A stretch of 43,373 nucleotides of DNA from Nemertoderma westbladi. Lineage: Eukaryota > Animalia > Xenacoelomorpha. Under the pieces are notes generated by a model that was not told the DNA's origin, searched no databases, and saw only the letters and a program-made list of their open reading frames with translations. A program made the position numbers and the translations under genes. Shown here piece after piece: positions 12,731 through 41,370 of this stretch. How positions within the stretch are numbered: position 1 is the first letter of the stretch; the number at the start of each line of letters is the position of its first letter. Location of the stretch: positions 1 to 43,373 of the forward strand of contig JAUCBJ010007441.1 of NCBI GenBank assembly GCA_032718475.1, written 5' to 3'.

Positions 12731-12970
12731 CCGACGACATTGTGATCGTATCGACACCCCCGTTCGCCGAATCTGTTTCCGAAGGCGACGTTCGGTGGGA
12801 GAAATCCGTGGGCGATTTTGTGAATGAAGATGAACAGCTGGGGGAGATTGAGACGGATAAAACAGCTTTACCGGTACCGGCACCGGTGTCGGGGTATATA
12901 GAAGCGTTCCTAGTGGAGGATGGGGAGAAAGTAACAGCTGGTCAACAGTTGGTGAGGTTAAGGGTGTCAG
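12731..12970 (+). CDS. DLST: DLST exon 3, lipoyl domain
   Basis: ttttccag| then [67 protein letters not shown], including the lipoyl-lysine motif ETDK. Donor TCAG|gttggt, phase 1. Confidence 0.93.
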
Positions 12971-15900
12971 GTTGGTTCCTAGTGGAGGATGGGGAGAAAG
13001 TAACAGCTGGTCAACAGTTGGTGAGGTTAAGGTTGTCAGGTTGGTTCCTAGTGGAGTGAGGGGAGAAAGTAACAGCTGGTCAACAGTTGGTGAGGTTAAG
13101 GGTGTCAGGTTGGTTCCTAGTGGAGGATGGGGAGAAAGTAACAGCTGGTCAACAGTTGGTGAGGTTAAGGTTGTCAGGTTGGTTCCTAGTGGAGTGAGGG
13201 GAGAAAGTAACAGCTGGTCAACAGTTGGTGAGGTTAAGGGTGTCAGGTTGGTTCCTAGTGGAGGGAGGGGAGAAAGTAACAGCTGGTCAACAGTTGGTGA
13301 GGTTAAGGTTGTCAGGTTGGTTCCTAGTGGAGGGAGGGGAGAAAGTAACAGCTGGTCAACAGTTGGAGAGGTTAAGGGTGTCAGGTTGGTTCCTAGTGGA
13401 GGATGGGGAGAAAGTAACAGCTGGTCAACAGTTGGTGAGGTTAAGGGTGTCAGGTTGGTTCCTAGTGGAGTGAGGGGAGAAAGTAACAGCTGGTCAACAG
13501 TTGGTGATGTTAAGGGTGTCAGGTTGGTTCCTAGTGGAGGGAGGGGAGAAAGTAACAGCTGGTCAACAGTTGGTGAGGTTAAGGGTGTCAGGTTGGTTCC
13601 TAGTGGAGGGAGGGGAGAAAGTAACAGCTGGTCAACAGTTGGTGTGGTTAAGGTTGTCAGGTTGGTTCCTAGTAGAGGATGGGGAGAAAGTAACAGCTGG
13701 TCAACAGTTGGTGAGGTTAAGGGTGTCAGGTTGGTTCCTAGTGGAGGATGGGGAGAAAGTAACAGCTGGTCAACAGTTGGTGAGGTTAAGGGTGTCAGGT
13801 TGGTTCCTAGGGGAGTGAGGGGAGAAAGTAACAGCTGGTCAACAGTTGGTGAGGTTAAGGTTGTCAGGTTGGTTCCTAGTGGAGGGAAGGGAGAAAGTAA
13901 CAGCTGGTCAATAGTTGGTGAGGTTAAGGTTGTCAGGTTGGTTCCTAGTGGAGTGAGGGGAGAAAGTAACAGCTGGTCAACAGTTGGTGAGGTTAAGGGT
14001 GTCAGGTTGGTTCCTAGGGGAGGGAGGGGAGAAAGTAACAGCTGGTCAACAGTTGGTGAGGTTAAGGTTGTCAGGTTGGTTCCTAGTGGAGGGAAGGGAG
14101 AAAGTAACAGCTGGTCAATAGTTGGTGAGGTTAAGGTTGTCAGGTTGGTTCCTAGTGGAGTGAGGGGAGAAAGTAACAGCTGGTCAACAGTTGGTGAGGT
14201 TAAGGTTGTCAGGTTGGTTCCTAGTGGAGTGAGGGGAGAAAGTAACAGCTGGTCAACAGTCGGTGCGGTTAAGGTTGTCAGGTTGGTTCCTAGTAGAGGG
14301 AGGGGAGAAAGTAACAGCTGGTCAACAGTCGGTGCGGTTAAGGTTGTCAGGTTGGTTCCTAGTAGAGGGAGGGGAGAAAGTAACAGCTGGTCAACAGTTG
14401 GTGAGGTTAAGGTTGTCAGGTTGGTTCCTAGTGGAGTGAGGGGAGAAAGTAACAGCTGGTCAACAGTCGGTGCGGTTAAGGTTGTCAGGTTGGTTCCTAG
14501 TAGAGGGAGGGGAGAAAGTAACAGCTGGTCAACAGTTGGTGAGGTTAAGGTTGTCAGGTTGGTTCCTAGTGGAGTGAGGGGAGAAAGTAACAGCTGGTCA
14601 ACAGTTGGTGAGGTTAAGGTTGTCAGGTTGGTTCCTAGTGGAGGGAGGGGAGAAAGTAACAGCTGGTCAACAGTTGGTGAGGTTAAGGTTGTCAGGTTGG
14701 TTCCTAGTGGAGTGAGGGGAGAAAGTAACAGCTGGTCAACAGTCGGTGCGGTTAAGGTTGTCAGGTTGGTTCCTAGTGGAGTGAGGGGAGAAAGTAACAG
14801 CTGGTCAACAGTTGGTGAGGTTAAGGTTGTCAGGTTGGTTCCTAGTGGAGTGAGGGGAGAAAGTAACAGCTGGTCAACAGTCGGTGCGGTTAAGGTTGTC
14901 AGGTTGGTTCCTAGTAGAGGGAGGGGAGAAAGTAACAGCTGGTCAACAGTTGGTGAGGTTAAGGTTGTCAGGTTGGTTCCTAGTGGAGTGAGGGGAGAAA
15001 GTAACAGCTGGTCAACAGTTGGTGAGGTTAAGGTTGTCAGGTTGGTTCCTAGTGGAGTGAGGGGAGAAAGTAACAGCTGGTCAACAGTCGGTGCGGTTAA
15101 GGTTGTCAGGTTGGTTCCTAGTAGAGGGAGGGGAGAAAGTAACAGCTGGTCAACAGTTGGTGAGGTTAAGGTTGTCAGGTTGGTTCCTAGTGGAGTGAGG
15201 GGAGAAAGTAACAGCTGGTCAACAGTTGGTGAGGTTAAGGTTGTCAGGTTGGTTCCTAGTGGAGGGAGGGGAGAAAGTAACAGCTGGTCAACAGTTGGTG
15301 AGGTTAAGGTTGTCAGGTTGGTTCCTAGTGGAGTGAGGGGAGAAAGTAACAGCTGGTCAACAGTCGGTGCGGTTAAGGTTGTCAGGTTGGTTCCTAGTGG
15401 AGGGAGGGGAGAAAGTAACAGCTGGTCAACAGTTGGTGAGGTTAAGGTTGTCAGGTTGGTTCCTAGTGGAGTGAGGGGAGAAAGTAACAGCTGGTCAACA
15501 GTTGGTGAGGTTAAGGTTGTCAGGTTGGTTCCTAGTGGAGGGAGGGGAGAAAGTAACAGCTGGTCAACAGTTGGTGAGGTTAAGGTTGTCAGGTTGGTTC
15601 CTAGTGGAGTGAGGGGAGAAAGTAACAGCTGGTCAACAGTTGGTGAGGTTAAGGGTGTCAGGTTGGTTCCTAGGGGAGGGAGGGGAGAAAGTAACAGCTG
15701 GTCAACAGTTGGTGAGGTTAAGGTTGTCAGGTTGGTTCCTAGTGGAGTGAGGGGAGAAAGTAACAGCTGGTCAACAGTTGGTGAGGTTAAGGGTGTCAGG
15801 TTGGTTCCTAGGGGAGGGAGGGGAGAAAGTAACAGCTGGTCAACAGTTGGTGAGGTTAAGGGTGTCAGGTTGGTTCCTAGGGGAGTGAGGGGAGAAAGTA

Positions 15901-17809
15901 ACAGCTGGTCAACAGTTGGTGAGGTTAAGGTTGTCAGGTTGGTTCCTAGTGGAGGGAAGGGAGAAAGTAACAGCTGGTCAATAGTTGGTGAGGTTAAGGT
16001 TGTCAGGTTGGTTCCTAGTGGAGTGAGGGGAGAAAGTAACAGCTGGTCAACAGTTGGTGAGGTTAAGGGTGTCAGGTTGGTTCCTAGGGGAGGGAGGGGA
16101 GAAAGTAACAGCTGGTCAACAGTTGGTGAGGTTAAGGTTGTCAGGTTGGTTCCTAGGGGAGGGAGGGGAGAAAGTAACAGCTGGTCAACAGTTGGTGAGG
16201 TTAAGGTTGTCAGGTTGGTTCCTAGTGGAGGGAAGGGAGAAAGTAACAGCTGGTCAATAGTTGGTGAGGTTAAGGTTGTCAGGTTGGTTCCTAGTGGAGT
16301 GAGGGGAGAAAGTAACAGCTGGTCAACAGTTGGTGAGGTTAAGGTTGTCAGGATGGTTCCTAGGGGAGGGAGGGGAGAAAGTAATAGCTGGTCAACAGTT
16401 GGTGAGGTTAAGGTTGTCAGGTTGGTTCCTAGTGGAGGGAAGGGAGAAAGTAACAGCTGGTCAACAGTTGGTGAGGTTAAGGTTGTCAGGTTGGTTCCTA
16501 GTGGAGTGAGGGGAGAAAGTAACAGCTGGTCAACAGTTGGTGAGGTTAAGGTTGTCAGGTTGGTTCCTAGTGGAGGGAGGGGAGAAAGTAACAGCTGGTC
16601 AACAGTCGGTGCGGTTAAGGGTGTCAGGTTGGTTCCTAGGGGAGGGAGGGGAGAAAGTAACAGCTGGTCAACAGTTGGTGAGGTTAAGGTTGTCAGGTTG
16701 GTTCCTAGTGGAGTGAGGGGAGAAAGTAACAGCTGGTCAACAGTTGGTGAGGTTAAGGGTGTCAGGTTGGTTCCTAGGGGAGGGAGGGGAGAAAGTAACA
16801 GCTGGTCAACAGTTGGTGAGGTTAAGGTTGTCAGGTTGGTTCCTAGGGGAAGGAGGGGAGAAAGTAACAGCTGGTCAACAGTTGGTGAGGTTAAGGGTGT
16901 CAGGTTGGTTCCTAGTGGTGGAGGGAGGGGAGAAAGTAACAGCTGGTCAACAGTTGGTGAGGTTAAGGTTGTCAGGTTGGTTCCTAGTGGAGTGAGGGGA
17001 GAAAGTAACAGCTGGTCAACAGTCGGTGCGGTTAAGGTTGTCAGGTTGGTCCCTAGTGGAGGGAGGGGAGAAAGTAACAGCTGGTCAACAGTTGGTGAGG
17101 TTAAGGTTGTCAGGTTGGTTCCTAGTGGAGTGAGGGGAGAAAGTAACAGCTGGTCAACAGTCGGTGCGGTTAAGGTTGTCAGGTTGGTTCCTAGTGGAGG
17201 GAGGGGAGAAAGTAACAGCTGGTCAACAGTTGGTGAGGTTAAGGGTGTCAGGTTGGTTCCTAGGGGAGGGAGGGGAGAAAGTAACAGCTGGTCAACAGTT
17301 GGTGAGGTTAAGGTTGTCAGGTTGGTTCCTAGTGGAGGGAGGGGAGAAAGTAACAGCTGGTCAACAGTTGGTGAGGTTAAGGTTGTCAGGTTGGTTCCTA
17401 GGGGAGGGAGGGGAGAAAGTAACAGCTGGTCAACAGTTGGTGAGGTTAAGGTTGTCAGGTTGGTTCCTAGGGGAAGGAGGGGAGAAAGTAACAGCTGGTC
17501 AACAGTTGGTGAGGTTAAGGTTGTCAGGTTGGTTCCTAGGGGAGGGAGGGGAGAAAGTAACAGCTGGTCAACAGTTGGTGAGGTTAAGGGTGTCAGGTTG
17601 GTTCCTAGGGGAGGGAGGGGAGAAAGTAACAGCTGGTCAACAGTCGGTGAGGTTAAGGGTGTCAGGTTGGTTCCCAGGGGAGGGAGGGGAGAAAGTAACA
17701 GCTGGTCAACAGTTGGTGAGGTTAAGGTTGTCAGGTTGGTTCCTAGTAGAGTGAGGGGAGAAAGTAACAGCTGGTCAACAGTTGGTGAGGTTAAGGGTGT
17801 CAGGTTGGT
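12906..17809 (+). repeat. 69-bp tandem array (71 copies) made from the end of DLST exon 3 plus its splice donor
   Basis: The unit is the last 65 nt of the exon plus gttg. First donor at 12970, last at 17803; the difference is 4833 = 70 x 69 + 3 (one 3-bp insertion near 16915). Confidence 0.97.
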
Positions 17810-18532
17810 ACATCTTACCTTAACGTACTCCTAAATGTTGAGTGGGTGAGTTCTAACTACTATATTTTTATTTCAATGTTCCAGTATGATTGCTACAGTA
17901 ACAGGCTAAGCGGCTACTGGCTACAACATCCATGAGCACGTTATGCAACGGGAACGGGGCCCGAATGCCTTACCACCATTACAATTTATGCATACTATAC
18001 TGTAGCTGTTGCTGTACCTAGGCCTACTGCGCCATTATTGATACAATTATGAATATGATGTATTAAATATGGAATATAATTCAAAACTTCTAGTTCGAAG
18101 TCACACTAATACTAGATTAGATCTATGTTTTATTTATTTTATTCTCTCACTAGAATGCCTTTAAGGCTCAATTAAAGGTTTTTTAGAATTTTTATACAGT
18201 TAATTACCATGAGATTAACGATCCTCCTGTTTTAGTCTTACACATTTTATTTCCATAATAAAACTGTAAGTTGTAAGTAACATAATATGTTATGCACAAT
18301 TTTTATAAAAAATTGTAAGCATGGAACATGGGACATAATCACTTTCGACTCATGGGTTGTAACTTATGACTTACGACTTACCAGTGGAGAAGCACCCATC
18401 TGCCCATTTGATAGCAATGTGTTCTACAATTTATTTTGGCTTATGACTCAGGAAATAATTCTTACCCAGTGAAGTACGGGCTTACGGCTCCACCAATTTT
18501 GTGGATCACCCGACAAATTAGTGTAAAAGCAT

Positions 18533-18703
18533 TAACACGTTACATTCCCTAAACACATTATATTCCCAAACACGTTACATTCCCTAACACGTTATATTCC
18601 CTAACACGTTACATTCCCTAACACGTTACATTCCCTAACACGTTATATTCCCTAACACGTTACATTCCCTAAACACATTATATTCCCTAACACGTTATAT
18701 TCC
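18533..18703. repeat. 17-bp minisatellite, about 10 copies, just 3' of FAHD1
   Basis: Unit taacacgtta(c/t)attccc. Confidence 0.9.
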
Positions 18704-18808
18704 ATCGACGTTATAATTGGGATGTTTGTTGAGTCGGTAATGTAGAAACGCTGTAATCCCAGACTGTTAAATATCTATCATAAACATTATCTACCGGTAA
18801 TGCGAATG

Positions 18809-19465
18809 TTATTCCACACTGAATCGCATTTCTGTAAGAGTTTGTTGGTTTCTCTCGTCTATAAGTTTACCGTGCAGTCTGTCTCCATGGGTTACAGGAC
18901 CCACACCTTTAGGGGTCCCCGTTAATAGAAGATCTCCCGTCTCCCATGTCATATAGTCGCTGACGTAGGATATCAGATAGTCTACGCTGAAGGTCATGTC
19001 GCTAACCGAGCCAGACTGCACTAGTTTATCGTTAACTTGCAGCTCCAACCGGAGGTCCTTAACGTTGCTAACAGCCTCCTTCGCAACGAGTCCAGACACC
19101 GGGCACGATGTATCGAAACCTTTAGCCAGTGTCCATGGGAGCCCCGACTGTTTCGCCTCAGTTTGACTCTGTCTGTCAGTCATATCCAACGCCAGACAGT
19201 AGCCCCCGATATGCAGACCCCCCTCTCCTAGCGGAATAGCAGACCCGCCTCGTCCAATAACAACCCCTAGCTCCGTCTCATAATGGATTTCCTTTCTGGC
19301 CGGTGGGAGGCGTATGCAACCTTCCGTGAGGTAGGCGGATGTCGGCTTTATGAATATTACAGGTTCCCCCGGCGACGGGTTGCCCAGTTCCTTCGCGTGT
19401 TCCGTGTAGTTCCGACCAACGCAAACTATCTTTCGCGACATTTTTACGAAATTCCGTAGCGCCAT
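18809..19465 (-). CDS. FAHD1: FAHD1-like acylpyruvase / oxaloacetate decarboxylase-tautomerase, intronless CDS, nested antisense in DLST intron 3
   Basis: FAH-family motifs KIVCVGRNYTEHAKELGN, HYETELGVVIG, GYCLALDMT, WTLAKGFDTSCP, GDLLLTGTPKGVG; complete 218 aa. Confidence 0.93.
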   Translation of the reverse strand: MALRNFVKMSRKIVCVGRNYTEHAKELGNPSPGEPVIFIKPTSAYLTEGCIRLPPARKEIHYETELGVVIGRGGSAIPLGEGGLHIGGYCLALDMTDRQSQTEAKQSGLPWTLAKGFDTSCPVSGLVAKEAVSNVKDLRLELQVNDKLVQSGSVSDMTFSVDYLISYVSDYMTWETGDLLLTGTPKGVGPVTHGDRLHGKLIDERNQQTLTEMRFSVE

Positions 19466-20260: not shown

Positions 20261-20443
20261 GTGATGCACAGCCGCCTGCCCCCCAACCTGGTACCACTTC
20301 TCCCACATCAACTCCACCCAGCAGTGTCTCCCCTAGCAGTGTCTCCCCAAGCGATGTTGCTCCCAGCAGTGTACAAACTGAACTACCTACTAGCATGCCG
20401 CCAATACCATCGGCACCAAAGGCACCTCTGTCTGTTACACCTA
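20261..20443 (+). CDS. DLST: DLST exon 4, Pro/Ser-rich linker
   Basis: tttgttttag| phase 1, GDAQPPAP...LPTSMPPIPSAPKAPLSVTP, donor A|gttagt phase 1. Both phases fit the neighbouring exons. Confidence 0.8.
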
Positions 20444-22250
20444 GTTAGTAGACTATTCGAGAAGTTGTTCTGTATTTTACTCAAGTGTGGAAATCTTGAC
20501 AAGAACGAGCAAAGCGAGTCAGTAATATATTTAAACTAGAGCCAAGAGTTACTGGCGCGAAATTACCGTAAGCACTAGGGTAGCCCAAAATAATTTTTGT
20601 AAATGCCTATGGGCTACCACCCCAAATGTGCCAAATGGTTAAAAAAATATGCTATGAAGTGTTTCAATTTGGTTAAAGTCTACTCGGTGGTCAATGCCTC
20701 TAAAGTTACCCCACTATAATCGCTATCATCAGTAAGGTCGCGGTAGGGTGTTTTACCACCAGACACACTTCTGATAGTCATATGAGGACGATTTGATTTA
20801 TAGCTTTCTAGAAGCGCAATCATTGATTTGGTGGGGGTAGGTGAGACTAAAACTGTAAAAAAGTTAATATTTCTGAGGTGCATGCCATTTTTTCTTGAAT
20901 TATTATAGCTTTACATGTTTTGCGATTGTATGTTATTGTGGAATGTACTTCATTCTCATTGTAGGTGTTTTAGGTTTTTAGTGGTTCTATCTGTATGGGA
21001 TTTATTTTGGTCTCATTGGAACATCAATGGTCGATATACTACTATCGGCATGCTGCATCCCAGCTGCATTATATATATTACATATATATTTTTAATGCTG
21101 TGCCGGCTTGTCGACAAAATTGCGCCGCCACAACTCCCTATCACCCATGACATTTGCTAGATCATCCGCATCTCCAAGGCCAGTGTCCTTTAATATGCGT
21201 CTCAAGAAAGTCATGGGCTGTCCACCATGCTTATTCACTCCATGAGGTCACCAAAGTAAAAGATTATGCACTGGCTGGTCCTCACGGCGAAATAAATGTC
21301 CTGCAAAGCGGAGGCGGCTTCGTTCAAGTGTCAAGCTAGGGGAGATTAATGGAACACCTCCAATATTGTATAGTGTCTGATTGGAGATGTGTGAGTTGTA
21401 CCTAACACAATGAATCCGGCGCAGCATTCTTGTGTGTGTGTCATCCAGAAAATTGGTATCCTCTACAGTTAGAGCCCAGCATATAAGATAAGAGATCCAT
21501 ATAAGAGTACTGGTACTACTGCTGCCATAAATAATCGACCCTTGAGGTTCCGGTTTATTCTATTAATTCAATGCTGCCTGATATAGTTGTACTACCATGG
21601 TCGATATAGTTGAACTAGAGGCTTGTTTTAAGAGGAACTTATCAGTATTTTGAAATTATGATGGCCTATATTTGATATTAAAAGCCAAGAGTTCGACCTC
21701 ATTGCATGATATAGATTGTGCTGTATCTGTGGATAATTCTCATTCGATTATTAGTTATGGATCTCATTTTGGACTCCTTGTAACCACAATGTTGTATTCA
21801 GTTGGACAATAATCATGTTTTAAGACCAAATTACAAGTACTTTTGCAATTATTGCTTATATTTCATATTACAAGTAAAGATCTTGTGCTTTTAGCGAGGC
21901 TATATATAGCAAAGTATTTTTTGAAGCACTCTCATTATAGGCTTTTTGTGGTGGTACCGGTAGGTGACTGATGGGAATTTGAAAAACGTTTTTGGGCCAC
22001 CCTAGTAAACACCAAATGTGTTTAATGAGTTTAAACAATTATTTTATTTTATTTAAAACATTTAGGGAAAGGTGCAGGTTAGGTGAGGTGTTTTCTAAAA
22101 CCAAAACATTAATAATTAAACTTTATATTACTTGTCAATTTGGACTCGCTTTTTTCACTTTCGGAAAATGTGAGCCACTATCTGAAAGTGAAATACGTTA
22201 TATGGTCGCTTTAGTAACATGGCATTTTCGCTCTGCTGTTAAAAAAAAGT

Positions 22251-22452
22251 CTATAAACTCATCTTCCCTTCCAGCTTCCTCTATAAACTCATATTCCCTT
22301 TCAGCCTCCTCTATAAACTCCTCTTCCCTTCCAGCCTCCTCTATAAACTCATCTTCCCTTCCAGTCTCCTCTATAAACTCATCTTCCCTTCCAGCCTCCT
22401 ATTCCCTTCCAGCCTCTATAAACTCATCTTCCCTTCCAGCCTCCTCTATAAA
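22251..22452 (+). repeat. 30-bp tandem array (about 6.5 copies) made from the acceptor of DLST exon 5
   Basis: Unit ctataaactcatcttcccttccagcctcct. AG ends at 22274, 22304, 22334, 22364, 22394, 22412 and 22439. Confidence 0.93.
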
Positions 22453-22623
22453 GCCCCGAGCTGCCGCTACTGGTTCCCCCACCGGTCCCTCCGTTATGAT
22501 ATCCGGTTCCCGCTCGGAGGAACGCGTTCGGATGACTCGGATACGTGTCAGGACGGCGGAACGTCTAAAAACCTCACAGAGTCTCTACGCGATGCTGACC
22601 ACATTCAACGAGGTTGACATGAC
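22440..22623 (+). CDS. DLST: DLST exon 5, start of the catalytic domain (5' boundary ambiguous, 22275-22440)
   Basis: [39 protein letters not shown] matches the E2o consensus. Donor AC|gtgagt, phase 2. Confidence 0.9.
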
Positions 22624-24204
22624 GTGAGTAGATTAGTTGTTCTAGAACGTAAGTAGTTTATCGCTATCTAGCCATGGAGATTCTGGAAGTATACAACCAG
22701 TCGCTCAGTAAACAAACCCAAAATCAAGTAATTCTCGAAACATTCTTAACTCTTCTGTGAATTTTATTTTGTTATAAAATATTAATTGCAATTATTTTCT
22801 ATTGATCATTAAAGATTGTAGTGTGAGTGAGGCGAACTCCTAAAAAGTACTAATTATTAGTATAATTTTCTTGAGTAGTTGAGTTTACGAAGGCCCAATA
22901 TTACAAAACTTCAGGTATATATATATATATACCATTTAATATACTTTTTCTCGTGTTGCTTAAACAACAAGAATTACGTAATTATGATAAACCGTTGAAG
23001 AATTATGACTGTTTGAAATTGAAAAAATCGTAAATTTAGCTTGTCCAAGCACTGCCAGCACTGCCAAATTCAACATTCGATATACTTACAAATTCCATAA
23101 AGCCCTATAAACCCGATATATCATTTTGAAGCTGAGAATTTGATTACCTCCAATGTAATTTCGTTTCTTAATAATAACCCAAACTCTTATGGTAGCGGAG
23201 TAAAAAGAAAATGTCCAGTTCGTAACACGTAATGGTCCACCGTTGTAATGCTATACAAATGATTGGAACTTTCTTATAAGTAGCGTAGATCGCTTGGTTT
23301 TCGTATCATCTGAATCGTTGATTAATATTGACTTGATAATTACTATGTCAACCTCACCAGTTCATTTGAAATGTAACCAAACAATTGGTGTCCACCATGC
23401 AGTAATGCGTCCACCATTACTGAATGGCATTACAGCATGTGGACTGTCCCACATGTAATGGTATCATATATAAATTTTGCATTACCGCACAGGACAGTCC
23501 CCTTGCCGTAATAGTATGTTTGATACCAATAATTAGCTTAAAGCTATCCCGGTATAGAGGGATTGAGCAGTTCAGGTAACCCATAGCATATAGAGCATCT
23601 CTTCTGCATCGAGTAGCCCAGGCCCGTAATGGCCGCATCATCCAATCTACAATAACTCTAGCATCATCAATAACTATATGTACCTACAAGCATTTAGCTA
23701 CACGGGCCCACTGATTGTTAATGGGATGGTAGAACATTCTCATTCTCTGGTTTTAAAATTAGAGAATTGTTTCTTTCTTCCAAATGTTGGCATTTTTTTG
23801 CCGACTTTTTTCTCGGCCTTTGCAGATCCTCAAGTCACAACAACTGAACTGATTCAGATCAGAAATAATTAATTTGAAACCATTGCGGATTGCGAAACTG
23901 TACGGTTATGGGGCGCTGACTAGTGATCTCAAGCTGTCAGGTAGCTGGTACAGTAACAGTAGTACATTAGTAGGCTGCCACCTTATCGCAATTTGCAAGT
24001 AGGTACCGAAGTACCTTTACCGTCCTAGTTGGCCCTACAACAGGACCTGTGTATTATTACTATTTCCTAGTAAATTGTCGTGCCCTACACCCTACCGGTA
24101 GAACACCATCTCACTGGCAAACTGGCCTGTTAAATTTAATTGTTATTTATAAAAATAATCACAGATTTACTTCAAAGTTTAATTCATATAAAACGAACAT
24201 ATTA

Positions 24205-24963
24205 ATGGCTGCTTATCGTGTTGTTACTGAGTCCATGGTCGAACTCAACATAACAAACAACCTAACCGAACTGGTATCACAGCGGCGGTTTCCTAAGGAC
24301 CTCACGATAGCGGAATTCAAACAGAAACTCGAGCTAATAACGGGATGCGGCGCCAGCACTGTGCAACTACAATGCTTCACGGACGACAACAAGTTGGTGT
24401 GTTTGCTGGAGGACGATAGTAAACCCATTGGGTTCTACCCGGTGGACAGTGGGATGCGAGTACATGTAACTGACGCGGTGGGGAGGGGGGATCTGTTCGC
24501 GGATGAGACGGTCGTTAAATACGAGATATCCGACGCGGATTACTACGCGAGGGACGAAAGCGTGGATAAATACCTCCGGGATAATAAACTAGGGAAATAT
24601 AAAGAGTTAACGGAGGAGGAGAAACTAGCTAAAGAGGAGGAGAATAGAAGAGCGCAAGAGGAGTACGAACGTAAGCTAGCGAGTATAGAGGTAGGGAGTA
24701 GATGCGAGGTAAGGGTTGCTAAGCAGCCGAGTAGACGCGGAGTGGTCGCCTACAAGGGTCTAATCTCCCCGACTAATGACCCCTCGGTTGTGGAGACCCG
24801 TATAGGGGTGTCGCTTGACGAGCCGTTGGGTAAGAACGATGGGTCCCTAAACGGGAGACGGTACTTCACCTGTCAACTCAAGTACGGGTGTTTCGTACGA
24901 CCGTATCAGGTTGAGGTGGGGGACTTCCCGGAGTTGTTAGACGACGAACTCGATGAGATATAA
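24205..24963 (+). CDS. TBCB: Tubulin-folding cofactor B, intronless CDS, 252 aa, nested same-strand in DLST intron 5
   Basis: Ubiquitin-like N-terminus (RRFPKDLTIAEFKQKLELITG), coiled coil, CAP-Gly with GVSLDEPLGKNDGS...YFTC..KYG.FV.P, and C-terminal DEI. First ATG at 24205; AATAAA at 25253. Confidence 0.94.
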   Translation: MAAYRVVTESMVELNITNNLTELVSQRRFPKDLTIAEFKQKLELITGCGASTVQLQCFTDDNKLVCLLEDDSKPIGFYPVDSGMRVHVTDAVGRGDLFADETVVKYEISDADYYARDESVDKYLRDNKLGKYKELTEEEKLAKEEENRRAQEEYERKLASIEVGSRCEVRVAKQPSRRGVVAYKGLISPTNDPSVVETRIGVSLDEPLGKNDGSLNGRRYFTCQLKYGCFVRPYQVEVGDFPELLDDELDEI

Positions 24964-28182: not shown

Positions 28183-28713
28183 GCGGGGACATTCCGTCTC
28201 CATTATGGGGTGTGCGGGTACATCCCATCTCCATTATGGGGTGTGCGGGGACATTCCGTCTCCATTATGGGGTGTGCGGGGACATTCCGTCTCCATTATG
28301 AGGTGTGCGGGGACATTCCGTCTCCATTATGGGGTGTGCGGGGACATCCCATCTCCATTATGGGGTGTGCGGGGACATTCCGTCTCCATTATGGGGTGTG
28401 CGGGGACATCCCATCTCCATTATGGGGTGTGCGGGGACATCCCATCTCCATTATGGGGTGTGCGGGGACATCCCATCTCCATTATGGGGTGTGCGGGGAC
28501 ATTCCGTCTCCATTATGAGGTGTGCGGGGACATTCCGTCTCCATTATGGGGTGTGCGGGGACATTCCGTCTCCATTATGGGGTGTGCGGGGACATTCCGT
28601 CTCCATTATTGGGTGTGCGGGGACATTCCGTCTCCATTATGGGGTGTGCGGGGACATTCCGTCTCCATTATTGGGTGTGCGGGGACATTCCGTCTCCATT
28701 ATGGGGTGTGCGG
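28183..28713. repeat. 31-bp minisatellite, about 17 copies, in the SNX6 intron
   Basis: Unit gcggggacattccgtctccattatggggtgt, with starts at 28183, 28214, 28245. Confidence 0.95.
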
Positions 28714-28907
28714 TTGTGGTGACGATATATTCGCTATCAATTATTGATCGACGATATATCATGTGGATGTGGAATGAGATGAGACCTTCAAATATTATCA
28801 GAATCGTTTTAAATTTTTTAATTTAATTTTAAATTAAAAAAACGGAGCTGCGCCTCGTTGCCTCTAATTAATTATTAATTATAGTTTCTTATTAATTATT
28901 TAATTAG

Positions 28908-29345
28908 GCCGAGAGTCGGAAGAAGATTTATATAAAGTTCTCGGAGATTCTCGAGAAAGAACGTAAGTTGGAGGCGCGCGTGGCATCGGATGCGGACCTT
29001 AAACTCGCGGACACGCTGCGGTACTACATGCGGGATGCGCAGGCCGCGAAGGATCTCTTGTACCGCCGGCTGAGGAAACTAGCCGACTACGAGGCGGCCA
29101 ATAAGAACCTCGAGAAAGCGCGGGCCAAGAACAAGGAGATCCAGCAGGCCGAGGAAGCGCAGCAGTTAGCCGCCGACCAGTTCGAGAATATAAGTCGCGT
29201 TGCCAAACAGGAGTTGGTTGACTTCCGGAACAGGAGGGTGGCCGCCTTCAAGAAGAATCTCGTAGAGTTAGCCGAACTCGAGATTAAACATTCTAAGGCG
29301 CAGCTGCAGTTACTGCGCTCCTGTATCGATAACTTAAAGGCCTAG
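28908..29345 (+). CDS. SNX6: SNX6-like exon 2 (BAR C-terminal half); joined CDS is 408 aa
   Basis: taattag| phase 0, ...RKLEARVASDADLKLADTLRYYMRDAQAAKDLLYRR...FKKNLVELAELEIKHSK...stop. Confidence 0.92.
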   Translation, partial: AESRKKIYIKFSEILEKERKLEARVASDADLKLADTLRYYMRDAQAAKDLLYRRLRKLADYEAANKNLEKARAKNKEIQQAEEAQQLAADQFENISRVAKQELVDFRNRRVAAFKKNLVELAELEIKHSKAQLQLLRSCIDNLKA

Positions 29346-30564: not shown

Positions 30565-32512
30565 GCCACATTGCGTATACCTTTGATACACCCTGCGCCA
30601 CATTGCGTATAACTTTGATACACCCTGCGCCACATTGCGTGTAACTTTGAAACACCCTGCGCCACATTGCGTATAACTTTGATACACCCTGCGCCACATT
30701 GCGTGTAACTTTGATACACCCTGCGCCACATTGCGTGTAACTTTGATACACCCTGCGTCACATTGCGTGTAACTTTGATACACCCTGCGCCTCATTGCGT
30801 GTAACTTTGATACACCCTGCGCCACATTACGTGTAACTTTGATACACCCTGCGCCTCATTGCGTGTAACTTTGATACACCCTGCGCCACATTGCGTATAA
30901 CTTTGATACACCCTGCGCCACATTGCGTATAACTTTGATACACCCTGCGCCACATTGTGTATAACTTTGATACACCCTGCGCCACATTGCGTGTAACTTT
31001 GATACACCCTGCGCCACATTGCGTGTAACTTTGATACACCCTGCGCCTCATTGCGTGTAACTTTGATACACCCTGCGCCACATTGCGTGTAACGTTGATA
31101 CACCCTGCGCCACATTGCGTATAACTTTGATACACCCTGCGTCACATTGCGTGTAACTTTGATACACCCTGCTCCACATTGCGTGTAACTTTGATACACC
31201 CTGCGCCACATTGCGTGTAACTTTGATACACCCTGCGCCTCATTGCGTGTAACTTTGATACACCCTGCGCCACATTGCGTGTAACTTTGATACACCCTGC
31301 GTCACATTGCGTGTAATTTTGATACACCCTGCGTCACATTGCGTGTAACTTTGATACACCCTGCGCCACATTGCGTGTAACTTTGATACACCCTGCGCCT
31401 CATTGCGTGTAACTTTGATACACCCTGCGCCTCATTGCGTGTAACTTTGATACACCCTGCGCCACATTGCGTGTAACTTTGATACACCCTGCGCCACATT
31501 GCGTGTAACTTTGATACACCCTGCGCCACATTGCGTGTAACTTTGATACACCCTGCGCCTCATTGCGTGTAACTTTGATACACCCTGCGCCACATTGCGT
31601 GTAACTTTGATACACCCTGCGCCACATTGCGTGTAACTTTGATACACCCTGCGTCACATTGCGTGTAACTTTGATACACCCTGCGTCACATTGCGTGTAA
31701 CTTTGATATACCCTGCGCCACATTGCGTGTAACTTTGATACACCCTGCGCCTCATTGCGTGTAACCTTGATACACCCTGCGCCTCATTGCGTGTAACTTT
31801 GATACACCCTGCGTCACATTGCGTATAACTTTGATACACCCTGCGTCACATTGCGTGTAACTTTGATACACCCTGCGCCACATTGCGTGTAACTTTGATA
31901 CACCCTGCGCCACATTGCGTGTAACTTTGATACACCCTGCGCCTCATTGCGTGTAACTTTGATACACCCTGCGTCACATTGCGTGTAACTTTGATACACC
32001 CTGCGCCTCATTGCGTGTAACTTTGATACACCCTGCGTCACATTGCGTGTAACTTTGATACACCCTGCGCCACATTGTGTGTAACTTTGATACACCCTGC
32101 GTCACATTGCGTGTAACTTTGATACACCCTGCGCCACATTACGTGTAACTTTGATACACCCTGCGCCTCATTGCGTGTAACTTTGATACACCCTGCGTCA
32201 CATAGCGTATAACTTTGATACACCCTGCGCCTCATTGCGTGTAACTTTGATACACCCTGCGCCACATTGCGAATAATTTTGATACACCCTGCGTCACATA
32301 GCGTATAACTTTGATACACCCTGCGTCACATAGCGTATAACTTTGATACACCCTGCGCCACATTGCGAATAATTTTGATACACCCTGCGTCACATAGCGT
32401 ATAACTTTGATACACCCTGCGTCACATAGCGTATAACTTTGATACACCCTGCGCCTCATTGCGTGTAACTTTGATACATCCTTGCGCCACATTACTAGTG
32501 CCACATTATGTG
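30565..32512. repeat. 32-bp satellite, left block, about 61 copies
   Basis: Unit cacattgcgtgtaactttgatacaccctgcgc. Confidence 0.96.
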
Positions 32513-34954
32513 TCTGATTTATAGGCGCACAAAGGCGCACATCCGGTCTAACCGGCATATAATTGTTGTTAGATATCAGCACGAGACAGAAATTAAAATG
32601 AGCTACATTACTTTGCTAGATAAATTGTTTTAACTTCTAGTTAAATTAATTTTCTTAATACGATTTAATTAAAATGATTAAAATGTCTCTGGGCAATCTC
32701 GAGCTTCTCACTGAAAGGGAGACCATTGATCGAGAAGCAACTGTGGAGAAAGTAAATATTTCCTATATCCTTAATATACCCGAGTTCTGCGGGTGAGACG
32801 ACCATGCAGCTCACCATTATCATATCTATAATTCAATAGACTAAATAGCGATGGGAGACTATATAACTGTCGGGCAGATTCATATGTTTGACTTAGACCT
32901 GGCTGTTTCTTCTTCTTTGTGTATGAGTTGATCGATAGAAGAAAACGAAGACCTCTCTATAAGTGCAGTTTCGGACATAAAGTAATCCTTCTCAGCATGT
33001 TAAGACACCTATTGAAGACCATTTGCGACAAAGATGAGCATCCAAACACCATTTGCATAGTACCATTCGTGCAATAGTTAGATAAATACATGAGACGTCG
33101 AAGAATGTGGCGATAATGGCTGTCCAACTTTTCAATTGCTGATTGAGAGAGTGTGCCTAAATGAAAATCCAGGCCAAATGATAGCCAGGGAATACCTGCC
33201 ATGTTCCATAAATTCACGACGCAGCTTAATGGAAGTTGTCGGACAGACCAGCCTCGCTAATGGAAGATTGCTCCAGCCGCTGATATTTTCTTAATACAAT
33301 CATCCAAGAATTTCTTTTGCTTATGGTAAATCTTATACCCCAGAAATGTTAACTCAACTGATAAAGCAATCTCCGAACCTAGAATATTCAGACTGTTGCT
33401 GTTTGTGATATCAGTTTTAACCTCCCCATTGATTTCCATCAAGCTTGTTTTGGTCGGACTGATTAGTAAACCAAGTTTTCTTAGGGCTGCCGATAGGATT
33501 CCCATCATTGATTCCGCTTCCCAGGCATTGCGTGCAATTAACAGGATGTCATCGGCATAGTTGATGATAGAAAACTGCAATGTCCCAATCCTGTATCCCT
33601 GTCCAGAGTTTTCAATTGCGCTGATGGCATCCCCTATATAAGTGTTAAAAAGACAAGGAGACAACAGTGAACCTTGTTTTATGACGTTCGTAGCTTTGAA
33701 ACTGAACTTATCCACCTTTACACCAAACTTAAAATAGAGCTGGCTGCAGAGATAATACCTTAGAAGAACTCTACACACATGAGGGTTTACATGGTTCATG
33801 AGCTTCCCAAATAGAATTATGTAGTCGACAAGGTCAAAGGCTGAAATTATATCAGTTTGACACAAGATAATAGGGCTGTTTTGACTTCTGCTGTAATTTA
33901 TTATTTCATAAGCGATACCTATTGCCATGTCACACCCCATTCCCTTTTGATAGGCCATTGATGAATCGTGTGGCAGAATATTGCAGATGAAATCATTGAG
34001 ACGTATTGCTTCGAAAATTTTAGATAGGAGATTCACAGAGGATATTGGTCTTTATGAACTTGGAGATGAACGGTCTTTGCCTTTCCCTTTATAAATACAG
34101 GAAACAACGGTCTCACCAAAGGACTCGGGACAATGACCAATTCGCAAGGCTGTATTGAAGATCGTCTGCAGAATTGCAACAATTTAACATGGATCTAGGG
34201 CTAAGAGATGCTCAGCAACCATTGAGTTAAGATCTGGTGATTTGTTGAAGTGGAGGTTATGGTTCGCAGATCGGATACAGCTAGCTGTGATGTGTGGTGC
34301 ACCGGAATTTTGACATTTCTCATCCAGTTCTAAGATTATATCTGAAAATTCTTGTTCCGGGAGCTTGTTTAATTGTTTCGTAAAATTTGAACGTAGTGCA
34401 TCTTGAAGATGCCCACCATCAATATTCCGTTGTTTGGGGTCTGCTGTTTTCCAGAAGGTGCGTGAATTACTATTTTTCATCCGTTCCTGAAGATTTTCGT
34501 TTGTCCGGACCCTAAAAAGCTTATTCCTAAGTCTCCTAGTTGCTCTCCTTGCTTTTTTTTTATATCGCGTAAAATAGAATCGCTGTCTTGAGACCCATTC
34601 TTGACCCATAGCTGATAAAGCCCTTTTGTGTTACGTGAATAATCTTCTAGTTGGCTATTTCGTATTCTGATGTTCTTTACCTTCCGCCGAGTACTTCCAG
34701 TAGTAGGTAAATTTTTTTTTGGAAGAAGTTTACAATGCAGCTTGTCACTTGGTCAACATATGAATCTAACTGTTGGCATGTCCAAGTTTCTGGATTGGGG
34801 TATGAATGAGATATGTCATTGAGCTTACAATGTACAGATTCATTATATAGCCGTAACTGTTCAGTCGATGCCTTAGCCCAGTTAAACCTCAACTTTCTTG
34901 TACTCTGAACAGCTCCCCTCTTACCTGGTGGGAGACTTAAATTAAGTGAAATCG
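32513..34954 (-). mobile_element. 5'-truncated, frameshifted non-LTR retrotransposon (RT region) interrupting the 32-bp satellite
   Basis: DIISAFDLV, IKQGSLLSPCLFNTYI, NYADDILL, KTSLM, FLGY in ORF 33257-34036. Upstream pieces NKSPDLN.MVAEHL and FNWAKAS lie in separate ORFs broken by stops and frameshifts. The endonuclease is absent. Confidence 0.88.
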
Positions 34955-36860
34955 CACCCTGCGCCACATTGCATGTAACTTTGATACACCCTGCGCCACA
35001 TTGCGTGTAACTTTGATACACCCTGCGCCACATTATGTGTAACTATGATACATCCTGCGCCACATTGCGTATAACTTTGATACACCCTGCGTCACATTGC
35101 GTATAACTTTGATACACCCTGCGCCACATTGCGTGTAACTTTGATACACCCTGCGCCACATTGCGTGTAACTTTGATACACCCTGCACCACATTGCGTGT
35201 AACTTTGATACATCCTGCGTCACATTGCGTGTAACTTTGATACACCCTGCGCCACATTGCGTGTAACTTTGATACACCCTGCGCCACATTGCGTGTAACT
35301 TTGATACACCCTGCGCCACATTGCGTGTAACTTTGATACACCCTGCGCCACATTGCGTGTAACTTTGATACACCCTGCGCCACATTGCGTGTAACTTTGA
35401 TACACCCTGCGCCACATTGCGTGTAACTTTGATACACCCAGCGCCACATTGCGTGTAACTTTGATACATCCTTACGCCACATTGCGTGTAACTTTGATAC
35501 ACCCTGCGCCACATTGCGTGTAACTTTGATACATCCTGCGTCACATTGCGTATAACTTTGATACATCCTGCGCCACATTGCGTTTAACTTTGATACACCC
35601 TGCGCCACATTGCGTGTAACTTTAATACACCCTGCGCCACATTGCGTGTAACTTTGATACATCCTGCGTCACATTATTTGTATCTCCGATACACCCTGTG
35701 CCATATTATGTGTAACTTTGATACATCCTGTGCCACATTGCGTATAACTTTGATACATCCTGCGCCACATTGCGTGTAACTCCGATACACCCTGTGCCAT
35801 ATTATGTGTAACTTTGATACATCCTTGCGCCACATTACTAGTGCCACATTATGTGTAACTTTGATACATCCTTGCGCCACATTACTAGTGCTACATTATG
35901 TGTGACTTTGATACTTCCTTGCGCCACATTACTAGTGCCACATTATGTGTGACTGTGATACATCCTTGCGCCACATTATGTGTAACTGTGATACATCCTG
36001 CACCACATTAATGTGTAACTGTGATACATCCTACGCCACATTATGTGTAACTCCGATACACCTTGCTCCACATTGCGTATAACTTTGATACATCCTGCGC
36101 CACATTATTTGTAACTCCGATACAACCTGTGCCATATTATGTGTAACTTTGATACATCCTTGCGCCACATTACTAGTGCCACATTATGTGTAACTTTGAT
36201 ACATCCTTGCGCCACATTACTAGTGCTACATTATGTGTGACTTTGATACTTCCTTGCGCCACATTACTAGTGCCACATTATGTGTAACTGTGATACATCC
36301 TACGCCACATTATGTGTAACTCCGATACACCCTGCTCCACATTGCGTATAACTTTGATACATCCTGCGCCACATTATTTGTAACTCCGATACAACCTGTG
36401 CCATATTATGTGTAACTTTGATACATCCTGCTCCACATTATTTGTAACTCCGATACAACCTGTGCCATATTATGTGTAACTTTGATACATCCTTGCACCA
36501 CATTACTAGTGCCACATTATGTGTAACTTTAATACATCCTTGCGCCACATTACTAGTGCCACATTATGTGTAGCTGTGATACATCCTGCACCACATTATT
36601 TGTAACTCCGATACAACCTGTGCCATATTATGTGTAACTTTGATACATCCTTGCACCACATTACTAGTGCCACATTATGTGTAACTTTAATACATCCTTG
36701 CGCCACATTACTAGTGCCACATTATGTGTAACTTTGATACATCCTTGCGCCACATTATGTGTAGCTGTGATACATCCTGCGCCACATTATGTGTAACTCC
36801 GATACGTACTAGCGCCACATTGAATGTAACTTTGACATCCTAGCGCCACATTGCATGTAC
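34955..36860. repeat. 32-bp satellite, right block: homogeneous to about 35670, then degenerate variants
   Basis: Same unit as the left block. Distal copies carry tactagtgccacat insertions and tccgata variants. Confidence 0.93.
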
Positions 36861-37278: not shown

Positions 37279-37409
37279 AAATCTAATAGCAATGCGCAAA
37301 ACTCACAAAGAATCCTTCTCCAAAAAACACAACGTTAATCTAAGCTTTATGTCGCCATTTATCAAAGCTGCAGCCCACGCCCTAAAAGATCAACCAATAG
37401 TAAACGCAG
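37279..37409 (+). CDS. DLST: DLST exon 6, catalytic domain; gene continues beyond the window
   Basis: ttctgttacag| phase 2 (AC+A = Thr), [43 protein letters not shown], donor G|gttagt. Directly continues exon 5 in the E2o consensus. Confidence 0.92.
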
Positions 37410-40400
37410 GTTAGTATCAAAGGAACGATTAACCAATAGTAAACGCAGGTTAGTATCAAAGGGAAGATTAACCAATAGTAAACGCAGGTTAGTATCAAAG
37501 GAAAGATTAACCAATAGTAAACGCAGGTTAGTATCAAAGGGAAGATTAACCAATAGTAAACACAGGTTAGTATCAAAGGGAAGATTAACCAATAGTAAAC
37601 GCAGGTTAGTATCAAAGGAACGATTAACCAATAGTAAACGCAGGTTAGTATCAATGGGAAGATTAACCAATAGTAAACGCAGATTAGTATCAAAGGGAAG
37701 ATTAACCAATAGTAAACGCAGGTTAGTATCAAAGGGAAGATTAGCCAATAGTAAACGCAGGTTAGTATCAAAGGGAAGATTAGCCAATAGTAAATGCAGG
37801 TTAGTATCAAATGAACGATTAACCAATAGTAAACGCAGGTTAGTATCAAAGGGAAGATTAACCAATAGTAAACGCAGATTAGTATCAAAGGGAAGATTAA
37901 CCAATAGTAAACGCTGGTTAGAAACAAATGGAAGATTAACTAATAGTAAACGCAGGTTAGTATCAAAGGGAAGATTGGCCAATAGTAAACGCAGGTTAGT
38001 ATCAATGGGAAGATTAACCAATAGTAAACGCAGATTAGTATCAAAGGAACGATTAACCAATAGTAAACACAGGTTAGTATCAAAGGGAAGATTAACCAAT
38101 AGTAAACGCAGGTTAGTATCAAAGGAACGATTAACCAATAGTAAACGCAGGTTAGTATCAAAGGGAAGATTAACCAATAGTAAACGCAGGTTAGTATCAA
38201 AGGAAAGATTAACCAATAGTAAACGCAGGTTAGTATCAAAGGGAAGATTAACCAATAGTAAACACAGGTTAGTATCAAAGGGAAGATTAACCAATAGTAA
38301 ACGCAGGTTAGTATCAAAGGAACGATTAACCAATAGTAAACGCAGGTTAGTATCAATGGGAAGATTAACCAATAGTAAACGCAGATTAGTATCAAAGGGA
38401 AGATTAACCAATAGTAAACGCAGGTTAGTATCAAAGGGAAGATTAGCCAATAGTAAACGCAGGTTAGTATCAAAGGGAAGATTAGCCAATAGTAAATGCA
38501 GGTTAGTATCAAATGAACGATTAACCAATAGTAAACGCAGGTTAGTATCAAAGGGAAGATTAACCAATAGTAAACGCAGATTAGTATCAAAGGGAAGATT
38601 AACCAATAGTAAACGCTGGTTAGAAACAAATGGAAGATTAACTAATAGTAAACGCAGGTTAGTATCAAAGGGAAGATTGGCCAATAGTAAATGCAGGTTA
38701 GTATCAAAGGAACGATTAACCAATAGTAAACGCAGGTTAGTATCAAAGGGAAGATTAACCAATAGTAAACGCAGGTTAGTATCAAAGGGAAGATTAACCA
38801 TTAGTAAACACAGGTTAGTATCAAAGGGGAGATTAACCAATAGTAAACGCAGGTTAGTATCAAAGGAACGATTAACCAATAGTAAACGCAGGTTAGTATC
38901 AAAGGGAAGATTGGCCAATAGTAAATGCAGGTTAGTATCAAAGGAACGATAAACCAATAGTAAACGCAGGTTAGTATCAAAGGGAAGATTAACCAATAGT
39001 AAACGCAGGTTAGTATCAAAGGGAAGATTAACCAATAGTAAACACAGGTTAGTATCAAAGGGGAGATTAACCAATAGTAAACGCAGGTTAGTATCAAAGG
39101 AACGATTAACCAATAGTAAACGCAGGTTAGTATCAAAGGGAAGATTAACCAATAGTAAACGCAGGTTAGTATCAAAGGGAAGATTAACCAATAGTAAACG
39201 CAGGTTAGTATCAAAGGGAAGATTAGCCAATAGTAAACGCAGATTAGTATCAAAGGGAAGATTAACCAATAGTAAACGCAGGTTAGTATCAAAGGAAAGA
39301 TTAACCAATAGTAAACGCAGGTTAGTATCAAAGGAAAGATTAACCAATAGTAAACGCAGGTTAGTATCAAAGGGAAGATTAACCAATAGTAAATGCAGGT
39401 TAGTATCAAAGGAACGATTAACCAATAGTAAACGCAGGTTAGTATCAAAGGGAAGATTAACCAATAGTAAACGCAGGTTAGTATCAAAGGGAAGATTAAC
39501 CAATAGTAAACGCAGATTAGTATCAAAGGGAAGATTAACCAATAGTAAACACAGGTTAGTATCAAAGGGGAGATTAACCAATAGTAAACGCAGGTTAGTA
39601 TCAAAGGAACGATTAACCAATAGTAAACGCAGGTTAGTATCAAAGGGAAGATTAGCCAATAGTAAACGCAGGTTAGTATCAAAGGGAAGATTAACCAATA
39701 GTAAACGCAGGTTAGTATAAAAGGAAAGATTAACCAATAGTAAACACAGGTTAGTATCAAAGGGGAGATTAACCAATAGTAAACGCAGGTTAGTATCAAA
39801 GGAACGATTAACCAATAGTAAACGCAGGTTAGTATCAAAGGGAAGATTAACCAATAGTAAACGCAGGTTAGTATCAAAGGGAAGATTAACCAATAATAAA
39901 CGCAGGTTAGTATCAACGGGAAGATTAACCAATAGTAAACGCAGGTTAGTATCAAAGGAAAGATTAACCAATAGTAAACGCAGGTTAGTATCAAAGGGAA
40001 GATTAACCAATAGTAAACGCAGGTTAGTATCAAAGGGAAGATTAACCAATAGTAAACGCAGGTTAGTATCAAAGGAAAGATTAACCAATAGTAAACACAG
40101 GTTAGTATCAAAGGGGAGATTAACCAATAGTAAACGCAGGTTAGTATCAAAGGAACGATTAACCAATAGTAAACGCAGGTTAGTATCAAAGGGAAGATTA
40201 ACCAATAGTAAACGCAGGTTAGTATCAAAGGGAAGATTAGCCAATAGTAAACGCAGGTTAGTATCATAGGGAAGATTAACCAATAGTAAACGCAGGTTAG
40301 TATCAAAGGAAAGATTAACCAATAGTAAACGCAGGTTAGTATCAAAGGGAAGATTAACCAATAGTAAATGCAGGTTAGTATCAAAGGGAAGATTAACCAA

Positions 40401-41370
40401 TAGTAAACGCAGGTTAGTATCAAAGGGAAGATTAACCAATAGTAAACGCAGGTTAGTATCAAAGGGAAGATTGGCCAATAGTAAACGCAGGTTAGTATCA
40501 AAGGGAAGATTAACCAATAGTAAACGCAGATTAGTATCAAAGGGAAGATTAACCAATAGTAAACGCAGATTAGTATCAAAGGGAAGATTAACCAATAGTA
40601 AACGCAGATTAGTATCAAAGGGAAGATTAACCAATAGTAAACGCAGGTTAGTATCAAAGGGAAGATTAACCAATAGTAAACGCAGGTTAGTATCAATGGG
40701 AAGATTAACCAATAGTAAACGCAGGTTAGTATCAAAGGGAAGATTAACCAATAGTAAACGCAGGTTAGTATCAAAGGGAAGATTAACCAATAGTAAACGC
40801 AGGTTAGTATCAAAGGGAAGATTAACCAATAGTAAACGCAGGTTAGTATCAAAGGGAAGATTGGCCAATAGTAAATGCAGGTTAGTATCAAAGGGAAGAT
40901 TAACCAATAGTAAACGCAGGTTAGTATCAAAGGGAAGATTAACCAATAGTAAACGCAGATTAGTATCAAAGGGAAGATTAACCAATAGTAAACGCAGGTT
41001 AGTATCAAAGGGAAGATTAGCCAATAGTAAACGCAGGTTAGTATCAAAGGAAAGATTAACCAATAGTAAACGCAGGTTAGTATCAAAGGGAAGATTAACC
41101 AATAGTAAACGCAGGTTAGTATCAAAGGGAAGATTAGCCAATAGTAAACGCAGGTTAGTATCAAAGGGAAGATTAACCAATAGTAAACGCAGGTTAGTAT
41201 CAAAGGAAAGATTAACCAATAGTAAACGCAGGTTAGTATCAAAGGGAAGATTAACCCATAGTAAACGCAGGTTAGTATCAAAGGGAAGATTAGCCTATAG
41301 TAAACGCAGGTTAGTATCAAAGGGAAAATTAACCAATAGTAAACGCAGGTTAGTATCAAAGGAAAGATTA
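37388..41370 (+). repeat. 39-bp tandem array (102 copies) made from the end of DLST exon 6 plus its splice donor
   Basis: Unit gattaaccaatagtaaacgcag|gttagtatcaaagggaa. First donor at 37409, last at 41348; the difference is 3939 = 101 x 39. Confidence 0.97.

What the first reader, a model, noticed from the sequence alone, without database searches (positions are those of the whole stretch)
12731..41370. Three splice sites of one housekeeping gene independently amplified into tandem arrays
Seen: the exon 3 donor (69 bp x 71), exon 5 acceptor (30 bp x about 6.5) and exon 6 donor (39 bp x 102) each form the unit of a minisatellite. The units are unrelated in sequence and each straddles an exon/intron boundary. 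All three unit lengths and the visible indels (+3; shortened units of 18 and 27) are multiples of 3. Inference: three such arrays among 11 visible splice sites, in a window that is mostly intron, suggests a process targeting exon/intron junctions, perhaps transcription- or splicing-coupled breakage and slippage. A survival filter is the alternative: repeats starting in an exon persist only if they include the splice site, so the extra copies are spliced out. Caveat: frame preservation cannot matter for the 39-mer, which has an immediate stop.
Basis: partly seen in the sequence, partly recalled or inferred. Interest (0 to 1): 0.88.

Follow-up and report, generated by a model that had tools for sequence, protein, structure and literature searches.

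The report
Splice-junction "mirage" repeats in DLST
In an animal's gene for a core energy-metabolism enzyme (DLST), three exon edges with their splice signals are copied head-to-tail 7, 71 and 102 times into the introns, yet the assembled transcripts use the signal nearest the exon, so this is likely a harmless new example of a repeat type already described in lancelets, chickens and humans.

Summary
The gene is DLST. Three of its 11 splice sites in the window are the units of tandem arrays (69 bp x 71, 30 bp with 7 acceptors, 39 bp x 102). Spliced contigs use the exon-proximal site at all three, even at the 30-mer, where every decoy is in frame and stop-free. The 39-mer is high-copy in two DNA samples, and the 30-mer array is 75 bp shorter in one. 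Four more arrays in the window lie away from splice sites. Random seeding expects 0.10-0.30 junction arrays among 7 (P 8e-5 to 2e-3, picked window); a survival filter barely changes that. The multiple-of-three pattern is likely chance. The kind is known: lancelet 'mirages', chicken 'exon stuttering', the human F7 VNTR. The scan found it before: 11 of the 12 same-genome notes shown to me, and 60 findings in at least 15 genomes (unchecked). Why exon edges are favoured is still open.

The parts
10378..10431 (+). DLST exon 1, coding part (predicted; transit peptide start)
   Evidence: ATG and GTAAGT donor, open frame; not checked in RNA
11016..11178 (+). DLST exon 2 (predicted)
   Evidence: AG acceptor, GTTGGA donor, open frame, phase fits exon 3; not checked in RNA
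12731..12970 (+). DLST exon 3, lipoyl domain; last 65 bases are copy 1 of the 69-mer
   Evidence: Pfam Biotin_lipoyl 2.5e-17; best PDB hits are DLST; joined to exon 4 in X4 and X5
12906..17809 (+). 69-bp donor array, 71 copies (65 exon + 4 intron bases)
   Evidence: 70 of 71 copies keep the donor; 27 of 71 carry an in-frame TGA
20261..20443 (+). DLST exon 4, Pro/Ser linker, with a wholly exonic 15-bp repeat at 20320-20352
22250..22452 (+). 30-bp acceptor array, 7 acceptors (17 intron + 13 exon bases); all in frame and stop-free
   Evidence: one X2 contig skips 22338-22412
22440..22623 (+). DLST exon 5, start of the catalytic domain; begins at the last acceptor
   Evidence: joint 20443 to 22440 in X4 and X5; 7 of 7 PDB hits are DLST/E2o
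37279..37409 (+). DLST exon 6; last 24 bases are copy 1 of the 39-mer
   Evidence: Pfam 2-oxoacid_dh 3.9e-07; covered without differences and spliced at both ends in X4 and X5
37386..41370 (+). 39-bp donor array, 102 copies (24 exon + 15 intron bases); read-through meets a stop at once
   Evidence: word depth about 11,000 (X1) and 8,900 (X2) on copies 2-3

Best explanation
These are three minisatellites whose units span real DLST splice sites; they likely arose by ordinary microhomology-guided slippage or repair, likely grew by unequal exchange, and are likely neutral because the assembled transcripts use the site nearest the exon. Step 1 (inferred): a 30-69 bp stretch across the exon edge is duplicated between short direct repeats (8 of 8 bases shared at the 30-mer's ends, 7 of 8 at the 39-mer's, only 2 at the 69-mer's). 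Step 2 (inferred from unit order): the pair is amplified in multi-unit steps. Step 3 (shown in contigs): the first donor and the last acceptor are used, so the spare copies are intron. Step 4 (inferred): wholly exonic seeds are purged or stay at 2-3 in-frame copies. Step 5 (untested): the excess at exon edges most likely reflects more frequent birth in or beside exons, which are GC-rich here and may be break- or recombination-prone, rather than a machine that reads splice sites.
For: Splicing: X4 has exon-3 upstream sequence, one unit only, then exon 4; X4 and X5 join 20443 to 22440; both run from exon 6 into sequence outside the array. All 7 acceptors of the 30-mer are in frame and stop-free, so a premature stop cannot explain the choice of the last one; position likely does. 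In human F7 only the most upstream of identical donors is used (PMC1557585). General repeat-proneness: 4 of 7 arrays are not at splice sites, and exon 4 holds a small in-frame repeat. Multi-unit steps: 39-mer units 1-15 equal units 19-33 (longest run in 300 shuffles: 10); the exon-type 69-mer variant occurs only in copies 1, 2, 4, 8, 12, 13. Length variation: one X2 contig is 75 bp shorter in the 30-mer array, one X4 contig 126 bp shorter in the 17-mer array. Composition: 7 of 9 coding stretches measured are 51-57% GC against 37% for non-coding DNA, and 5 of 7 arrays are 45% GC or more. Units contain intron bases, so they were not copied from spliced RNA.
Against: Restricting seeds to 45% GC or more only about doubles the expectation (0.17-0.30; P 4e-4 to 2e-3), so composition alone does not explain 3 of 7. 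The 39-mer and exon 6 are only 35% and 39% GC. The 69-mer has almost no end homology. End overlaps could also be left over from later partial copies. Contigs drop rare variants, so low-level use of decoy sites is not excluded. X5 covers only 26 bases before the exon 3 donor and does not show which copy was used. The intron part is 17 bases or less in 3 of 3 units, which fits a junction-directed process (about 0.06 by chance, my arithmetic).
Confidence: 0.6

Rival explanations
1. A transcription- or splicing-coupled lesion (paused polymerase, R-loop or spliceosome-bound nascent RNA) makes breaks or slips at splice junctions themselves, seeding the arrays there.
For: 10-30-fold excess in the window that neither the filter nor a GC cut-off removes; intron part 4, 15 and 17 bases, just the splice signal; 11 of the 12 same-genome notes shown describe such arrays (unchecked and selected).
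Against: No direct test. Four non-junction arrays of similar unit length lie in the same window. In chicken, exon stuttering is a 3.4% subset of general intron stuttering on dot chromosomes (PMC12954441). 12 of 15 splice sites here are untouched.
Confidence: 0.2
2. There is no real bias: the genome is rich in minisatellites, exonic ones are purged, and windows with junction arrays were picked by the first reader.
For: Seven arrays in 43 kb; the window was chosen after the fact from a scan of some 250,000 windows; one note on another genome reports only about twice the chance rate (unchecked).
Against: P 8e-5 to 2e-3 per window; repeated multi-array genes in the same genome, such as 4 of 10 exon ends in one gene (unchecked).
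Confidence: 0.12
3. The arrays are functional: they tune DLST level or make alternative forms through decoy splice sites, with unit lengths of three kept by selection.
For: All 30-mer acceptors and the second 69-mer donor would give in-frame, stop-free products; human CBS and 6-16 arrays use the second and third sites (PMC1557585).
Against: Contigs show the single-copy form only; the 39-mer and all 69-mer donors from the third on include a stop; length differs between samples.
Confidence: 0.05
4. The long arrays are assembly artefacts.
For: A 15-unit block is exactly repeated in the 39-mer; copy numbers were not checked on long reads; the depth bin over the 69-mer also holds other multi-copy sequence.
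Against: 27 and 22 distinct unit variants with position-dependent order; 39-mer copies at depth about 11,000 and 8,900 in two DNA samples against 17-25 for single-copy contigs; one of the two may be the source sample.
Confidence: 0.03

Closest known systems
Amphioxus 'mirage' minisatellites (Adh3, globins BflGb6/BflGb9, troponin C, PGBD5). Seen: passages of PMC3087553 and PMC3902484; the original Adh3 paper was not held and is cited second-hand.
   Same: [quoted passage not shown]
   Different: Copy numbers here (71, 102) exceed the 3-6 given for BflGb6. The host is not a lancelet: its SNX5/6 is 62% identical to Branchiostoma proteins.
Chicken 'exon stuttering' on dot chromosomes, PMC12954441. 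Seen: all of section 7 and passages; supplements not read.
   Same: Edge of an exon with its donor or acceptor copied in tandem into the adjacent intron; exon part 20-187 bp; purely intronic arrays alongside; length polymorphism; mechanism left open.
   Different: 1-44 copies (median 4) and imperfect in chicken against up to 102 at 94-95% identity here; 3.4% of dot-chromosome introns there against 3 of 6 DLST introns in this picked window. The sections I read give no test of junction versus intron seeding.
Human exon-intron VNTRs: F7 intron 7 (37 bp), CBS (31 bp), LMNB2 (100 bp), PDGF (81 bp), 6-16. Seen: abstract and passages of PMC1557585. Related: PMC2812944, sections 5 (part 1 of 2) and 12.
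   Same: First unit spans the donor; identical pseudo-donors follow; the most upstream donor is used.
   Different: Single loci with 5-25 copies; here three arrays in one gene, one of them on the acceptor side.

Membership tests
Mirage / exon-stuttering minisatellite | Direct tandem repeat whose unit spans a real exon-intron boundary | tested here: met
   boundaries confirmed by spliced contigs
Mirage / exon-stuttering minisatellite | Extra copies lie in the adjacent intron and the coding exon stays intact | tested here: met
   One copy in the X4 contig at exon 3; last acceptor at exon 5 and first donor at exon 6 in X4 and X5
Mirage / exon-stuttering minisatellite | Copies keep the splice signal | tested here: met
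   70 of 71, 89 of 102 and 7 of 7
Mirage / exon-stuttering minisatellite | Length varies between alleles or individuals | tested here: inconclusive
   30-mer array 75 bp shorter in one X2 contig (assembly collapse not excluded); not measurable for the two long arrays
Mirage / exon-stuttering minisatellite | Somatic instability (reported for Adh3) | not testable with these tools
   No raw or long reads among the 6 runs listed
DLST (E2 of 2-oxoglutarate dehydrogenase) | Lipoyl domain, Pro/Ala/Ser linker, acyltransferase domain; closest to E2o | tested here: met
   the last exons lie beyond the window
Coding tandem repeat / exon duplication | Copies present in mRNA and in frame | tested here: not met
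   Absent from the spliced contigs; stops in 69- and 39-mers
RNA-derived copy (retrocopy, back-spliced exon) | Unit ends at splice sites and lacks intron bases | tested here: not met
   Units hold 4, 15 and 17 intron bases and start or end inside the exon

The most novel reading that the evidence does not exclude
In this animal a mutational process aimed at splice junctions seeds minisatellites genome-wide at ten or more times the background rate and lets them grow to kilobases, making it a natural system for finding what breaks DNA at exon edges and for testing splice-site choice among up to hundreds of identical decoys, acceptors included.
Probability: 0.25. Interest if true: 0.7.

Novelty: new member of a known kind. 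Interest (0 to 1): 0.3.

Why it matters
As a locus it is a clean, RNA-checked example of a known repeat type in an essential gene. Two points go a little further. First, a survival filter alone cannot produce an excess of junction arrays over intron arrays, so if the excess holds on unselected sequence there is a real bias in where repeats are born; none of my searches listed a genome-wide test of that in an invertebrate. Second, the 30-mer gives seven in-frame, stop-free acceptors of which the last is used, a natural test of exon-anchored acceptor choice that mRNA decay by premature stops cannot confound.

Tried and rejected
No whole genome is held, so the genome-wide test could not be run. 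No run is on record as RNA; X4 and X5 are labelled 'DNA?' and I treat them as RNA because they join exons at GT..AG ends and leave introns largely uncovered. The depth bin 17670-18020 (about 80 times background in X1, X2) is not used as proof for the 69-mer, because it also holds other multi-copy sequence and X5 is high there too; Rfam found nothing in the window or at 17810-18500. No DNA contig of X1 or X2 is listed over most of exon 6; the tool says a hole proves nothing. Protein searches did not place the organism: best TBCB hits 43-48%, best SNX5/6 hits about 64-72%, spread over several animal phyla. A blast of 11 coding stretches against the window found copies only of the ends of exons 3 and 6; the 13-base exon 5 piece is too short for it. 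Two papers were not held. A search for the short-direct-repeat origin of minisatellites listed one review that I did not read; that model is recalled. Rejected: coding repeat, retrocopy, frame selection as the general rule, artefact.

Full report
Gene and setting. The window holds the first six exons of DLST on the + strand. Exon 3 matches the lipoyl domain and exon 6 the acyltransferase domain; the best solved-structure hits for exons 3 and 5 are succinyltransferases. Exons 1 and 2 are predicted from frame and splice signals. Three genes are nested in DLST introns (FAHD1 family on -, TBCB and SNX5/6 on +) and a Tctex-1 gene lies upstream. The host is an animal with no close relative in the protein collection; I did not identify it. 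No genome is held.

The observation. TRF finds the three arrays. The 69-mer has 71 copies (69 of 70 intervals 69 bp, one 72), the 39-mer 102 copies (101 of 101 intervals 39 bp), and the 30-mer 7 acceptors with one 18-bp and one 27-bp unit. Each unit spans the boundary: 65 exon + 4 intron, 24 + 15, and 13 + 17 bases. A junction 13-mer recurs at 3 of 15 splice sites and at none of the other 12.

Splicing. Six runs were listed; I laid four. X4 and X5, from two samples and two studies, behave as RNA. In X4 exon-3 upstream sequence is followed by one unit and then exon 4; X5 covers only 26 bases there. Both join 20443 to 22440, the last acceptor, and both join exon 5 to exon 6. Both cover exon 6 without differences and continue into sequence outside the array, in frame; that it resembles the next DLST exon is recalled. 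So the exon-proximal site is the dominant one at all three arrays. Contigs drop rare variants, so minor decoy use is open. Decay of stop-containing forms could hide decoy use at the 39-mer (immediate stop) and at 69-mer donors from the third on, but not at the 30-mer, whose 7 acceptors are all in frame and stop-free. Position therefore likely decides. For donors this matches the F7 experiments (PMC1557585, abstract and passages).

Reality and variation. Copies 2-3 of the 39-mer have summed word depth near 11,000 (X1) and 8,900 (X2) against 17-25 on single-copy contigs. This shows a multi-copy unit in two samples, not a copy number, and one may be the source sample. One X2 contig skips 22338-22412 in the 30-mer array, likely a shorter allele. 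The 69-mer could not be checked cleanly.

Chance. With each array collapsed to one unit, uniform seeding expects 0.10-0.16 junction-spanning seeds among 7; removing wholly coding seeds gives 0.11-0.18; also demanding 45% GC gives 0.17-0.30. P of three or more is 8e-5 to 2e-3. The window was picked for this feature, so these are not clean tests. They do show that the survival filter cannot by itself create the excess. Unchecked notes describe the same arrays in 11 of the 12 distinct same-genome findings shown to me, of 19 indexed, and 60 findings in at least 15 genomes hold the same key words. Those are selected too.

Multiples of three. Three of three has a 1-in-27 chance. The 72-bp unit repeats a GTG and the 27-bp unit lacks a CCT in a CCT-CCT run, which local slippage explains. 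Published junction units include 37, 31, 100 and 157 bp; notes on this genome give 47 and 67 bp (unchecked). Frame could have eased the founding two-copy stage of the 69- and 30-mers, but not of the 39-mer.

Mechanism. Shown: units include intron bases, so they come from unspliced sequence. Inferred: birth between short direct repeats, since the 30-mer's ends share 8 of 8 bases and the 39-mer's 7 of 8, with the intron-side base in 100 of 101 later copies; the 69-mer shares only 2. The model itself is recalled. Inferred: growth in multi-unit steps, since 39-mer units 1-15 equal 19-33 (longest run in 300 shuffles 10) and the exon-type 69-mer variant is confined to copies 1-13. Inferred: neutrality. 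Untested: why exon edges. I favour more frequent birth in or beside GC-rich, break- or recombination-prone exons with purging of exonic arrays (0.6) over a splicing-coupled lesion (0.2), no real bias (0.12), function (0.05) and artefact (0.03). Against my choice: a GC cut-off only doubles the expectation, and exon 6 is 39% GC.

What is known. Repeats spanning exon-intron boundaries are named 'mirages' in lancelets and leave splicing normal (PMC3087553, PMC3902484; passages). A chicken screen found 'exon stuttering' in 236 introns, 190 of them on dot chromosomes, with 1-44 copies, and left the mechanism open (PMC12954441, section 7 and passages); its supplement on the 115 genes, not read, may bear on unit lengths. 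Human cases include F7, CBS, LMNB2, PDGF and 6-16, and 162 alignments with repeats at exon-intron boundaries before curation in PMC2812944. My searches listed no genome-wide enrichment test in an invertebrate; subscription papers are mostly not covered.

Verdict. Real, RNA-checked, and a new member of a known kind, found repeatedly by this scan. Interest 0.3. The open and testable part is whether exon edges seed repeats more often than matched DNA.

Noticed in passing
window 18809-19465 (-), 24205-24963 (+), 27018-29345 (+), 6707-7144 (-): Three genes nested in DLST introns (FAHD1 family, TBCB, SNX5/6) and a Tctex-1 gene upstream. FAHD1, TBCB and Tctex-1 have no intron in the coding part and SNX5/6 has one; X4 covers the three nested ones and splices SNX and a TBCB 5' UTR intron (23900-24101). 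TBCB and SNX lie on the same strand as their host.
   Followed up: partly
window 30565-36852: 32-bp minisatellite of about 6.3 kb with derived 47-, 94- and 158-bp periods at its 3' end, split by a broken reverse-transcriptase element at about 32494-34954.
   Followed up: partly
window 18533-18703: 17-bp array in the FAHD1-family 3' UTR; an X4 contig is 126 bp shorter there.
   Followed up: partly
window 28179-28713 and 2037-2696: 31-bp array in mid-intron of SNX5/6 and a 63-bp array near the window start; neither touches a splice site found here.
   Followed up: partly
window 20320-20352: A wholly exonic, in-frame 15-bp repeat (2-3 copies) in the DLST linker exon.
   Followed up: partly
window about 21050-21500: A very high-copy dispersed element (summed depth 350,000-700,000 in X1, X2 against about 25).
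   Followed up: no
window 41736-43373 (+): Open frame of 546 residues with an endonuclease domain, likely a LINE, running off the window 365 bases after the 39-mer array.
   Followed up: no
window 17670-18020: X5 has depth 4,284 in this bin against 87 for its DLST contig; no Rfam match at 17810-18500. Unexplained.
   Followed up: partly
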